Below, in pieces: positions 14,780-31,124 of a DNA stretch of 31,124 nt. A program made the translations under genes and the position numbers. How positions within the stretch are numbered: the first letter of the stretch is position 1; each line of letters starts with the position of its first letter. This stretch comes from Candidatus Asbonarchaeum danakilense (GTDB lineage Archaea; Nanohalarchaeota; Nanosalinia; Nanosalinales; Nanoanaerosalinaceae): contig JAXINV010000059.1 of assembly GCA_034190465.1 (NCBI GenBank), forward strand, positions 2,993-34,116. The letters run 5' to 3'. The notes under the pieces were generated by a model. The model did not search any database. It was not told the DNA's origin and was given only the letters and a program-made list of their open reading frames with translations.

Positions 14780-15076
14780 AGGGACAGGTCTCGAACGCGA
14801 GAATCACGGATTTTTCTATCGGTTCGATCCTGCCATGAGCAGCGAAAGGACGAGATGCAGGGGGGCAGGACTCGAACGTCGCAAACGTGCGTTTGCTCCG
14901 GATTCGAGTCCCTGGCGAGCTGGCAGAAGGAAGTGCGGGGGGCAGGTACGAAAACCTCTGTGAGGTTTTCTAGAGCGGAAATTCTCTCCGAGAATTTCAA
15001 GACTCGAACCTGAAGAAGCAAGGATTTTTCTACTGGTTCAATCCTGCTGTAAGCAACGAAAACTGGCAAAAGGAAG
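14780..15076 (-). repeat. Three degenerate tandem copies of the tRNA-Leu 3' end (T-arm plus acceptor strand), each paired with an inverted copy
   Basis: Plus-strand TGCGGGGGGCAGG..ACTCGAAC-like units at ~14934, ~14856 and ~14780, each followed by GTTCRATCCTGC or TTCGAGTCC. The flank CTGGCARAAGGAAG is also duplicated (14920 vs 15063). Confidence 0.8.
14947..15001. repeat. 55-bp double-palindrome insertion within a tRNA 3'-end copy
   Basis: GAAAACCTC-tgt-GAGGTTTTC and GAAATTCTC-tcc-GAGAATTTC split the copy between GCAGG and ACTCGAACCTG. Confidence 0.65.
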
Positions 15077-15221
15077 TGCGGGGGGCAGGACTCGAACCTG
15101 CGAACCTCTGAGGGACAGGGTATCTCAATTTGAAAATCCTGACGGATTTTCTGCTCCCCCCACCTCTGACGAGGAGCCGGGTTCCTAAGCCCTGCGCCTT
15201 TGACCGCTTGGCTACCCCCGC
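15077..15221 (-). tRNA. tRNA-Leu(TAG) with a 62-nt intron at 37/38 (intron 15122-15183)
   Basis: Acceptor GCGGGGG/CCCCCGC-A, D-arm GCCAAGCGGTCAAAGGC, anticodon stem CAGGG/CCCTG with loop CTTAGG|A, long variable arm, T-arm GCAGGTTCGAGTCCTGC. Relaxed BHB: CTTA/TGAG helix with GG|A and AT|A bulges. CCA not encoded. Confidence 0.92.
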
Positions 15222-15316
15222 AACTGGCTGGCGATCCAGTTGGCAGATCGCATTTCCCAGTATTCACGACTGCGGGCGGGAGATTTAAAATTGCCGAGGC
15301 ACAGTCACGGTGTGCT

Positions 15317-29202: not shown

Positions 29203-29847
29203 ATGAGTGGTGATGACCGCGACCTCGTGCTCGGGGAGCAGACCCTGTCGACGACGTTCCTGATGGAGATGGAACTCGATACGCTGTCGATGCTGTACGA
29301 GCATGCGGTGACCCGGGTTGAGGACACGGCTGAGCTCACTGGTGTTCATGAGGAGATGGAGGAGATCCTTGATGAGGCCGCGGAGCGTGCTTCTGAGGAA
29401 CTTGCGCGGTATGGTGTCGATTTGGATATCGAGGCACGGTACAACCCGCGTCTGCAAGGGGGTAAATGGGCTGACGATGGGGCTGTTGAGGTCGGCGGTC
29501 CTGGCAGGTGTGACCGTCCGTACCGTCTCGGGACCGAGATCACGCACGAGGCGTTACACGGTTACGCGGAGGAGCAGCGCGATGCGGACCACTATACGGC
29601 GCGGGAAGAGGGGTTGATGCAGACCTGGAATCTCTACTATGATGATGTGATTGAGTCTGAGGAGGAACGTGAGGAGCACCTGGATGATGTCAGACGGGTG
29701 TATAATGAACATGGCTCGATGCCAGAGGGGTTTGGCGATGAGATCTATGAATACGCGCAGCGCTTTGTTGCGATGTACGAGGAGGTGGACGGTGACCCTG
29801 AGGAGCGGATGGAGGAGGTTCTGGATACGGGGATGGGGTTGCTTTGA
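29203..29847 (+). CDS. Hypothetical protein with an HEXXH zincin-like motif
   Basis: THEALHG followed ~15 aa later by REEG; TTTTATAA upstream. Confidence 0.6.
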   Translation: MSGDDRDLVLGEQTLSTTFLMEMELDTLSMLYEHAVTRVEDTAELTGVHEEMEEILDEAAERASEELARYGVDLDIEARYNPRLQGGKWADDGAVEVGGPGRCDRPYRLGTEITHEALHGYAEEQRDADHYTAREEGLMQTWNLYYDDVIESEEEREEHLDDVRRVYNEHGSMPEGFGDEIYEYAQRFVAMYEEVDGDPEERMEEVLDTGMGLL

Positions 29848-29853
29848 CTGCGG

Positions 29854-30846
29854 TCAGAATTCGTAGGTTTCGTTGACGTGCTCGATGCAGTTGCCGAGTG
29901 CACGCCACCGGGCTGCCTCCCACGCTGTTTCGAGGGAGTTGCCGTTACCGTGGTTGAGATCGATGGCGTCGCTGCTGTAGGCTTCGTCACGGTCGTAGAT
30001 GCCGTCGCCATTCTCCCAGTTCGCGTCGTCCAGCATCTCGTCGAGCCCGCTGTAGTCTTCTTTGTCGTCGAAGATGCCGTCTTCCTTGAGTATTGATGAG
30101 ACGTAGTCGTCGATGTCTCTGACCTGGTCGACGTAGGTCTCGACGTTCTCTTGGCTGTCGTAGTTGGCAAGGGCTTCGTCGAGGAGTGTCTCGCTCATGT
30201 CGTACAGGGTCTCGGCGACGTGGTCGAGTCCTTCGTCGAGCTGGTAGGTGCTGTTGTCGATGAAGGCTTCGTCACGTGCTTCCGTTCTCCCGTTGAGAGG
30301 TTTGGGGGCGTCGTCGCCGGGGATCTTGTCTTTTCCCCCGTCGCTGGTGTAGATGCCGGGGTCCCAGTGCACGAGGTACTGTTCGTCGCTGTCTGCAGGG
30401 CTGTAGACCTGGGTATGGACTGTGAAGAGTTCTGTTCCGTCTCCAACATCGACATTCGTGGGGTTGAGTTCGCCCTCTGAACCTGCGACTCCGCCGATGA
30501 CGGTCTCGGCGAAGCTGATGTTGTAGAGTTCGCCGTCGTCGATTGGGGCGTCGGTCTCGATGCCGTCGACGTGCCGGTAGTCTTCGTCGCGTGTCGCGTG
30601 GGCGGAGTGCTCGACGATCCCATCGTTCCCGTTGTGGAATGGGCTGTGTTCGACCATGTCGTCGCGCACGTCATCATCGATAACTGTGCCGAGCGGGTGA
30701 CTGTCTTTGTTCCCGTTAAGGTACCGGATCAGTGTATCGTACCCTCTGACGATCTCCATGCTCTGTTCGCTGCTCAGCGGGTCCTGCCGCTGGAAGCAGG
30801 AGTCTCGGTCCTCGGGGACAGAGAACGTGTTGTTGTCACCCGACAT
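29854..30846 (-). CDS. Hypothetical acidic protein (330 aa)
   Basis: Long, very acidic ORF; TTTAAATA ~25 nt upstream of ATG 30846. Confidence 0.75.
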   Translation of the reverse strand: MSGDNNTFSVPEDRDSCFQRQDPLSSEQSMEIVRGYDTLIRYLNGNKDSHPLGTVIDDDVRDDMVEHSPFHNGNDGIVEHSAHATRDEDYRHVDGIETDAPIDDGELYNISFAETVIGGVAGSEGELNPTNVDVGDGTELFTVHTQVYSPADSDEQYLVHWDPGIYTSDGGKDKIPGDDAPKPLNGRTEARDEAFIDNSTYQLDEGLDHVAETLYDMSETLLDEALANYDSQENVETYVDQVRDIDDYVSSILKEDGIFDDKEDYSGLDEMLDDANWENGDGIYDRDEAYSSDAIDLNHGNGNSLETAWEAARWRALGNCIEHVNETYEF

Positions 30847-30906
30847 GAGTAACAATTTGTTTCGTAGTATTTAAAGCTTCGCCCTCCTGCCCGCTCCTTC
30901 AAGCAA

Positions 30907-30914
30907 TTTAAAAA
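30907..30914 (+). promoter_or_regulatory. TATA box upstream of the repeat array
   Basis: TTTAAAAA ~30 nt before the first repeat at 30943. Confidence 0.55.
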
Positions 30915-30942
30915 GTTGGACGTTGTGAGTAGTACAGAGAAG

Positions 30943-31124
30943 GCGGAGGTAGCCGGGTCCAGGTGCCTGGCAACTCCGGAGAGCATCACGCAAAGTATGC
31001 GGAGGTAGCCAAGTTCCCGTGCTTGGCAACTCCGAAAATCATCGATCAGGCATGCGGAGGTAGCCAAGTGGGCTTGCCAACCTCCTTAAACCAAGTGGCA
31101 AGCAATATGCGGGGGTAGCCAAGT
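30943..31124 (+). repeat. Tandem array of tRNA-Leu 5'-end-derived hairpins, period 55-56 bp
   Basis: GCGGRGGTAGCCRRG at 30943, 30999, 31054 and 31109; units 1-3 fold back on CYTGSCAAC(C)TCC. Confidence 0.85.
31109..31124 (+). tRNA. Possible 5' end of a tRNA-Leu gene, truncated by the window edge
   Basis: The first 15 nt (GCGGGGGTAGCCAAG) are identical to those of the tRNA-Leu at 15221. It could equally be a fourth repeat unit. Confidence 0.45.

What the first reader, a model, noticed from the sequence alone, without database searches (positions are those of the whole stretch)
30907..31124. Regularly spaced array of tRNA-5'-end hairpins with unique spacers, behind a TATA box
Seen: a TATA box, then units at 30943, 30999, 31054 and 31109 (period 56/55/55). 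Units 1-3 are 32-36-nt hairpins made of a near-copy of the first 15 nt of tRNA-Leu plus an imperfect inverted copy, separated by unrelated 20, 19 and 23-nt spacers. Pairing is kept through substitutions (GCCGGG/CCTGGC in unit 1 versus GCCAAG/CTTGGC in unit 2). Known: integration usually duplicates tRNA 3' ends, so 5'-end arrays are unusual. Inference: either a structured leader of a downstream tRNA-Leu (processing control, decoys for tRNA-targeting enzymes) or a CRISPR-like repeat-spacer RNA derived from tRNA. With the 3'-end copies at 14780-15076, it suggests a process generating fold-back copies of tRNA ends. The array is cut by the window edge.
Basis: partly seen in the sequence, partly recalled or inferred. 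Interest (0 to 1): 0.72.

Follow-up and report, generated by a model that had tools for sequence, protein, structure and literature searches.

The report
Stacked cassettes before a leucine tRNA
In a tiny salt-loving archaeon, the start of a leucine tRNA gene is preceded by a stack of short folded cassettes that each carry a copy of the tRNA's first bases; they come and go between related species and look like an undescribed kind of miniature mobile element, not a CRISPR array.

Summary
The array is real and recurs in two other assemblies. It is the 5' leader of tRNA-Leu(CAG) in a nanohaloarchaeal genome; the gene falls in a contig gap, its 3' end being on another contig. It is not CRISPR-like: relatives carry identical spacers in tandem, unit 3's 'spacer' is a conserved structural part, and cas1 is missing. 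Units are cassettes: tRNA nt 1-15, an antisense arm that co-varies with the host tRNA, and a tail. A covariance model finds them in 27 of 70 genomes of the phylum; all those inspected sit before a tRNA-Leu or another unit. The common type has two covariation-supported stems that fit a pseudoknot or two-state switch. Other tRNAs carry own-5' copies only upstream and own-3' copies only downstream, and these turn over quickly between congeneric genomes. Best reading (0.55): non-autonomous cassettes that spread between tRNA ends by homology and slippage, tolerated because pre-tRNA processing removes them. No mobilising enzyme found, no RNA data, and folding did not show that the arm protects the tRNA. 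Ten literature searches found no description. The scan noted similar modules before, in this genome and in other DPANN and Patescibacteria DNA.

The parts
30907..30914 (+). TATA-like box, the probable promoter of array plus tRNA
   Evidence: Only plus-strand TATA-like site in 30800-31124; 36 nt before unit 1, within the 29-68 nt range seen before plain tRNA genes of relatives. Function inferred.
30943..30998 (+). Unit 1, type B: copy of tRNA nt 1-15, arm pairing with the copy itself, 20-nt tail
   Evidence: model R1 hit E 2e-8, but R1 was trained on it
30999..31053 (+). Unit 2, type B: same build, 19-nt tail
   Evidence: (z -5.0)
31054..31108 (+). Unit 3, type A: stem 1 = 31056-31061 with 31080-31085; stem 2 = 31072-31078 with 31097-31103; the two cross, so pseudoknot or two-state switch
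31109..31124 (+). Fourth copy, cut by the contig end: either the first 16 nt of tRNA-Leu(CAG) or one more unit
   Evidence: The 3' end found on contig C9 pairs perfectly with units 1-3 and with one G-U pair with this copy; not resolved.
29854..30846 (-). Divergent upstream gene, acidic 330-aa protein without Pfam match, with its own TATA-like box near 30875; a neighbour, not part of the array
   Evidence: G001 has other genes at this place
15077..15221 (-). tRNA-Leu(TAG) with a 62-nt intron that holds a GAA..TTC palindrome
14780..15076 (-). Trailer of tRNA-Leu(TAG): copies of its T arm and 3' end (14999-15012, 14934-14946, 14867-14880) with inverted arms and palindromes between
15222..15253 (-). 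32-nt leader hairpin identical to the one before tRNA-Leu(CAA) on contig C31

Best explanation
The array is a stack of small non-coding cassettes in the 5' leader of tRNA-Leu(CAG). Each cassette is a copy of the tRNA's first 15 nt, an antisense arm and a tail. Because a cassette is bounded by two direct repeats (its own copy and the next copy or the tRNA start), it can be copied to the 5' end of any tRNA-Leu gene by homology-driven conversion or a single insertion, which rebuilds the gene start and leaves the old start upstream; it can also be doubled or lost by slippage. Different tails in one array are different cassette bodies gained one after another. The cassettes lie between promoter and tRNA, are co-transcribed and cut off by RNase P, as trailers are by RNase Z and introns by the splicing endonuclease, which is why tRNA genes tolerate them. 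The fold is kept in step with the host tRNA, either because the moving strand needs it or because it limits mispairing with the tRNA. Shown: anatomy, polarity, covariation, patchy distribution, within-genome sharing, presence of the processing genes. Inferred: transcription, RNase P cleavage, the route of movement.
For: Identity of the gene: Leu(CAG) is the one leucine anticodon missing from G000; contig C9 ends in 21 of 21 nt of its 3' end, and the flanking genes match the G001 locus, where four units precede an intact tRNA-Leu(CAG). Polarity: own-5' copies only upstream, own-3' copies only downstream, never the wrong side, in five genomes (6 and 14 of 40, 9 and 7 of 29, 3 and 7 of 29, 1 and 1 of 29, 2 and 0 of 31 tRNA calls; 0 and 0 of 21 in a non-related archaeal control). 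Turnover: of 21 tRNA genes scored in both G000 and G001, 0 share a 5' copy, 3 have one only in G000, 5 only in G001 (Leu(CAG), which both have, could not be scored). Patchiness: 27 of 70 genomes, at different leucine anticodons. Within-genome copying: variable columns 0.64 identical within a genome (7 pairs) against 0.38 within a family and 0.33 between families (159 pairs each). Slippage: identical tandem units in G001 and G038. Shared parts: 21 of 35 GAA..TTC palindromes of G000 lie in or within 400 nt of tRNA genes, 2.85% of the genome, 0 in two shuffles, in leaders, introns and trailers. Processing genes: RNase P RNA-like match in 4 of 5 (below the gathering score), splicing endonuclease and RNase Z in 5 of 5 genomes. 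TATA-like site before the first copy in 6 of 21 but before the tRNA itself in 1 of 21.
Against: No mobilising enzyme tracks the units: Y1 transposase 2 of 41, reverse transcriptase 4 of 41, none of these six with a model hit; tyrosine recombinases are common (26 of 41) but missing from one single-contig unit-bearing genome. How the first target-matched arm arises is unexplained. Conservation of two stems across three families is more than a passive passenger needs. Equilibrium folding does not show that the arm shields the tRNA: acceptor-stem probability 0.24 with the native unit against 0.16 with a shuffled arm and 1.0 for the tRNA alone (8 loci; native better in 3, worse in 1), and 0.06 in G001. 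No empty and filled alleles from strains of one species were seen.
Confidence: 0.55

Rival explanations
1. The unit is a selected RNA device: a leader switch or pseudoknot whose anti-acceptor strand pairs either with the upstream copy or with the tRNA's own 5' strand and so sets how fast the pre-tRNA folds and is cut by RNase P; or RNase P cuts at every copy and releases stable 55-nt RNAs that act as decoys for tRNA-directed enzymes.
For: Both stems carry two-sided changes (7 pairs, 22 cells, 0 of 500 shuffles). In G029 the tRNA, the copy, the arm and the tail all change together, and these units were not in the training set. One fixed A joins the stems and the linker is 55% A (187 of 339 nt), as in H-type pseudoknots (recalled). 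Copies start at tRNA +1, mostly after AT (13 of 24).
Against: 43 of 70 genomes have no model hit (many are incomplete); the genes that carry 5' copies differ between congeneric genomes; units 1 and 2 here have lost stem 2; copy number runs from 0 to 4. None of five highly expressed ncRNAs listed for a cultured nanohaloarchaeon holds the motif (PMC10266531 supplement, read by eye).
Confidence: 0.22
2. Neutral replication errors: template switching at stalled forks makes a direct plus inverted copy of the tRNA end in one step (a miniature inverted triplication), and slippage amplifies it; nothing is mobile.
For: The layout copy / inverted copy / copy is what such switches give (PMC4689423, search listing only; otherwise recalled). 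No enzyme found. The same layout occurs behind at least two protein genes, where each copy is followed by its own matching arm.
Against: Fresh switches would give perfect complements, but the arm has fixed mismatches (24 of 24 and 21 of 24) and a conserved tail partner across three families; the same palindromic modules recur at unlinked loci and in different genera.
Confidence: 0.12
3. Eroded scars of integrase- or casposase-mediated insertions that target the tRNA 5' half, each leaving a 15-nt att or target duplication.
For: pTN3-like integrases use the 5' half of tRNA genes (PMC8371274, passages); a casposase makes a 15-bp duplication at a tRNA gene end (PMC5137440, abstract). The genes next to this tRNA differ between G000 and G001 and the tRNA is inverted relative to its conserved neighbours.
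Against: Inserts are only about 40 nt with a conserved fold and near-constant length; no cargo, no integrase fragment in the units; cas1 in 1 of 27 unit-bearing genomes; the exact motif was not found in viral contigs.
Confidence: 0.08
4. A CRISPR-like memory array with tRNA-derived repeats and acquired foreign spacers.
For: Regular period, promoter-like leader, three unlike tails. Tail 1 has one exact 20-nt match in a viral contig.
Against: That match lies in a tail tape-measure-like gene of an AT-rich phage with a non-acidic protein, so not a halophile virus and most likely chance; tail 2 has none; tandem identical spacers; tail 3 is structural; no cas1 in G000 or G001.
Confidence: 0.03

Closest known systems
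att-site duplications of tRNA ends left by archaeal tyrosine-recombinase elements, especially pTN3-like integrases that use the tRNA 5' half (PMC8371274, passages)
   Same: A piece of the tRNA end is duplicated and an intact gene is kept; strict polarity.
   Different: Inserts of about 40-200 nt without integrase or cargo; copies of 12-25 nt from +1; an antisense arm matched to the host tRNA; the original promoter stays upstream; both ends and introns are affected.
Casposons and the CRISPR leader-repeat junction (PMC5137440, abstract)
   Same: About 15-nt duplication at a tRNA gene end; repeated insertion next to a leader would give an array.
   Different: The casposon duplication lies at the 3' end and flanks large elements with terminal inverted repeats; cas1 does not track the units; tails are not foreign DNA.
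REP/REPIN/BIME and other palindromic miniature elements moved by Y1 HUH transposases (recalled; MITE survey PMC11602168 seen as search listing only)
   Same: Short non-coding hairpin modules, clustered, patchy, shared between loci, some inside or behind protein genes.
   Different: The main stem is made of the target's own end; strong bias to tRNA genes; no Y1 transposase in most carriers.
Transposed tRNA introns of Thermoproteales (PMC4033280, passages)
   Same: Similar inserts shared among different tRNA genes of one archaeal lineage and removed by tRNA processing.
   Different: Here the inserts also sit outside the mature tRNA, in leaders and trailers, and come with duplicated tRNA ends.

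Membership tests
CRISPR array | Near-identical repeats with unique, unrelated spacers | tested here: not met
   Identical spacers in tandem in G001 and G038; tail 3 homologous across genomes
CRISPR array | cas1 or other adaptation genes in the genome or lineage | tested here: not met
   cas1 0 in G000 (92% complete), 3 of 70 in the phylum, 1 of 27 unit-bearing genomes; other cas genes not searched
CRISPR array | Spacers match viruses or plasmids of the host | tested here: inconclusive
   Tails 1 and 2 scanned exactly against viral contigs: one hit in a non-halophile-like phage, one blank; tail 3 not scanned; plasmids not scanned
Integrase att-site remnant (attL/attR) | Duplicated tRNA end with the intact gene on one side | tested here: met
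Integrase att-site remnant (attL/attR) | Integrase gene or fragment, or cargo, between or beside the repeats | tested here: not met
   About 40 nt between copies; the single weak integrase match of G000 is on another contig
Casposon | Casposase (solo Cas1) and terminal inverted repeats around a large element | tested here: not met
REP/REPIN | Many dispersed palindromic copies per genome | tested here: inconclusive
   35 GAA..TTC palindromes in G000, clustered at tRNA genes; the Leu unit itself has only 4 model hits
REP/REPIN | Associated Y1 HUH transposase (RAYT) | tested here: not met
   0 in G000, 2 of 41 relatives, neither with a model hit
Known RNA family (Rfam 15) | Covariance-model match | tested here: not met
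   No match on the units in the window or five related loci; only the tRNAs score
tRNA 5' leader removed by RNase P | Lies between promoter and tRNA +1; RNase P present | tested here: met
   (RNase P RNA match 81.9 bits, just under the gathering score of 84)
tRNA 5' leader removed by RNase P | Co-transcription and cleavage at +1 | not testable with these tools
   No RNA holder listed
H-type pseudoknot (type A unit) | Two crossing stems, each with compensatory changes | tested here: met
   3 of 6 and 4 of 8 pairs with two-sided change; rows were chosen with the tail motif, so conservation of stem 2 is partly circular, its flanking pair (8 two-sided changes) is not
H-type pseudoknot (type A unit) | Both stems formed at the same time | not testable with these tools
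   An alternative inner hairpin also keeps pairing; needs probing

The most novel reading that the evidence does not exclude
Nanohaloarchaea carry a self-propagating class of cassettes whose ends are the target gene's own end and whose RNA folds into a conserved pseudoknot or switch; the host has adopted them, so that RNase P cuts the stacked leader into unit-length RNAs or the switch gates tRNA maturation. That would be a tRNA-derived repeat array processed by a housekeeping nuclease and spreading without any dedicated enzyme.
Probability: 0.2. Interest if true: 0.85.

Novelty: new variant of a known kind. Interest (0 to 1): 0.58.

Why it matters
Streamlined symbiont genomes of about 1 Mb are expected to shed such DNA, yet a third of the sampled phylum keeps a structured cassette in front of tRNA-Leu genes and many tRNA genes carry similar leaders, trailers and introns. 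If they are mobile, they show a route of spread that uses tRNA processing as a safe haven and needs no resident transposase, which bears on the open question of how archaeal tRNA introns are gained. If they are functional, they are an undescribed layer of tRNA control. Cultured nanohaloarchaea exist, so both can be tested. In practice these repeats break assemblies at tRNA genes and could be mis-called as CRISPR arrays.

Tried and rejected
Assembly artefact: rejected, the array is letter-identical in two other assemblies and has an orthologue. Spacer matches: one viral hit rejected as chance; no second site for any tail in G000 at up to 3 mismatches. Viral contigs hold no exact unit motif; metagenome scan gave 2 true units among 73 hits. 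No RNA holder listed; this is no evidence on expression. Sigma-70 and terminator scan blank and not suited to archaea. A loose genome-wide scan for direct-plus-inverted repeats gave 253 hits, mostly coding noise, and was dropped. A strict test on protein-gene ends gave 2 of 1853 against 5 of 4653 internal controls, so the protein-gene cases are examples, not an enrichment. Masking by the arm not shown by equilibrium folding (one search failed on an empty pattern). GTAG-type REP idea dropped: Pro, Val, Gln and Ser units lack that motif. Bulge-helix-bulge or kink-turn geometry not seen in units 1-2 (3x2 internal loop; motif definitions recalled). Extending the contig beyond 31124 was not possible: X1 and X2 run 13 and 8 nt further but the letters are not shown. 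Ten paper searches found no description; the library lacks most subscription papers, and supplements of the bioRxiv preprint were not seen.

Full report
Observation. The window ends where contig C13 of G000 ends. G000 is a 1.2-Mb, 92% complete genome; titled records with the same unit are Nanohaloarchaeota and the proteins are acidic. Two other assemblies from salt-lake metagenomes of one study hold the array with no differing letter; one may be the source sample, so this rules out an assembler slip better than it shows independence. Folding strength differs: z -2.0, -5.0, -0.2 for units 1-3.

What the array leads into. G000 has tRNA-Leu genes for GAG, TAG, CAA and TAA but none for CAG. In the same-genus genome G001 a TATA-like box, one worn unit and three further units with identical tails precede an intact tRNA-Leu(CAG). 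The last 21 nt of that gene match the end of G000 contig C9 exactly, and the conserved neighbours (a glyoxalase-like gene, name recalled from the sequence, and a pterin dehydratase gene) flank it in both genomes. So the gene spans the C13/C9 gap. Whether 31109 is the tRNA start or a fourth unit is open: the C9 acceptor strand pairs perfectly with units 1-3 and with one G-U pair with the fourth copy. The region at 14780-15076 is the trailer of tRNA-Leu(TAG), which ARAGORN missed in the window without its intron option.

Distribution. An exact motif scan of 185,579 species genomes gave 71 loci. In 15 of 71 a second tRNA 5' copy follows; 14 of these have a called tRNA-Leu and one is cut by a contig end; 13 are titled as nanohaloarchaea and 2 as uncultured archaea. 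One more nanohaloarchaeal locus is cut short; the other 55 show neither copy nor tRNA and are chance; no Halobacteria title appears. A covariance model from 24 units hits 27 of 70 genomes of the phylum in three families (training genomes match by construction, kin are not independent, many genomes are incomplete). Every hit I printed is followed by a tRNA-Leu 5' end, of the gene or of another unit. Viral contigs gave 0, metagenome contigs 2 true units among 73 hits.

Anatomy. The arm follows the acceptor strand of the host tRNA: at positions 3-5, 49 of 57 cells are Watson-Crick in the 19 of 24 units without a bulge, against 36.3 when copies are permuted (0 of 10,000; related rows inflate this). 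Yet A faces A9 in 24 of 24 and C faces C11 in 21 of 24, so the arm is inherited, not freshly templated. The C11 mismatch is explained by a second partner: a six-base arm segment pairs fully with a segment of the tail in 14 of 30 units against 0.71 in shuffled tails (the 30 include one mis-parsed duplicate and two near-identical rows, and miss window unit 3). On 27 such 'type A' units from 19 genomes and one metagenome contig, the two crossing stems give 89.4% paired cells, 7 pairs and 22 cells with two-sided change (0-2 of 500 shuffles; slid controls lower); the plain hairpin gives 4 pairs and 11 cells, and one pair never forms. These rows were picked with the tail motif, which makes the conservation of stem 2 partly circular; the flanking pair, not selected on, shows 8 two-sided changes, and the G029 units, where tRNA, copy, arm and tail all shift together, were outside the training set. 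Window unit 3 is type A; units 1 and 2 are 'type B', where the arm pairs fully with the copy and the tail partner is gone. Mixed stacks occur elsewhere (G053, G049, G012).

It is general. In five nanohaloarchaeal genomes own-5' copies occur only upstream and own-3' copies only downstream of tRNA genes; wrong-side counts are all 0, distant controls 0-2, and a non-related archaeal control has none (only up to 30 loci per relative were fetched, the G000 set includes some false calls, and 2 of its 14 downstream cases span scaffold gaps). Leaders, introns and trailers share palindromic modules, which cluster at tRNA genes (21 of 35). The same layout stands behind a few protein genes, though not as a significant count.

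Dynamics. Between G000 and G001, 0 of 21 scored tRNA genes share a 5' copy, 3 and 5 have one alone; for 3' copies 3 of 19 share, 6 and 2 alone. Units within a genome are more alike than between genomes (0.64, 7 pairs, against 0.38 and 0.33), and the two other leucine genes of G000 share an identical 32-nt leader block. Identical tandem units show slippage.

Mechanism. I commit to non-autonomous cassettes that are copied between tRNA ends by homology and stacked or doubled in place, tolerated because processing removes them (0.55). The processing genes are there and the promoter lies before the first copy (a weak pattern that finds only 41 of 130 plain promoters). Against: no enzyme tracks them, the origin of a target-matched arm is unexplained, and equilibrium folding predicts that the upstream copy often steals the acceptor strand, with little rescue by the arm, although such folding ignores co-transcriptional order, pseudoknots and tertiary contacts. 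The functional-RNA rival (0.22) rests on the conserved double stem; neutral template switching (0.12), integrase or casposase scars (0.08) and a CRISPR-like array (0.03) follow.

Known systems and literature. It works like a miniature att-type or target-duplicating insertion and resembles REP-like elements and transposed archaeal introns, but fails the membership tests for CRISPR, casposons, integrase elements and RAYT-linked REPs, and matches no Rfam family. Seen: passages of PMC3119063, 10.1101/2025.02.15.638363, PMC9897764, PMC8371274, PMC4033280, PMC10266531 and its supplement search; abstract and outline of PMC5137440; listings only for PMC4689423 and PMC11602168. None of what I saw describes these cassettes, nor did ten searches list such a paper. 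Earlier AI notes of this scan report similar modules behind tRNA-Pro in this genome and at tRNA ends in other DPANN archaea and Patescibacteria; I did not check those other genomes, and they are not counted as support.

Verdict. Real, lineage-wide, apparently undescribed; a new variant of tRNA-targeted non-autonomous elements, with a 0.2 chance of being an adopted RNA device. Interest 0.58.

Noticed in passing
G000:C11:28510-28690 (+): Behind a parvulin-like gene (name recalled from the sequence) the gene end is repeated twice, each copy followed by its own inverted arm and a palindrome; the first copy differs from the gene at five third-codon positions, all synonymous, as if it were a former working gene end.
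   Followed up: partly
G000:C16:18670-18980 and G000:C11:9040-9170 (+): The same layout behind a prolyl-tRNA-synthetase-like gene (four copies, plus an in-frame palindrome inside the reading frame) and behind a thermosome-like gene; names recalled from the sequences.
   Followed up: partly
window 29203-31124 versus L031: tRNA-Leu(CAG) with its leader and trailer is inverted between G000 and G001 relative to the conserved neighbours, and the genes between tRNA and pterin dehydratase gene differ: a small variable island beside the tRNA.
   Followed up: partly
L007:1180-1515 (-), L033, L372, L382, G000:C1:99425-99605: Inserts inside the D loop of tRNA genes, flanked by short direct repeats; they must be spliced as non-canonical introns or the genes are dead.
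   Followed up: no
G000 whole genome: 22 of 40 tRNA calls carry introns (some calls are false), against 1 of 29 in G014; intron load and flanking-copy load seem to rise together across five genomes, G012 being an exception.
   Followed up: no
window 29854-30846 (-): Acidic 330-aa protein without Pfam match, with one weak paralogue on contig C2.
   Followed up: no
G000 contigs C5/C11, C29/C53: tRNA-Pro(CGG) and tRNA-Phe loci with their flanking units appear twice on different contigs, perhaps strain variants in the bin.
   Followed up: no
window 31053-31124, runs X1-X3: Short contigs with variant type-A units, one at depth 89, show that other organisms or strains of the same lake carry sister units.
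   Followed up: no
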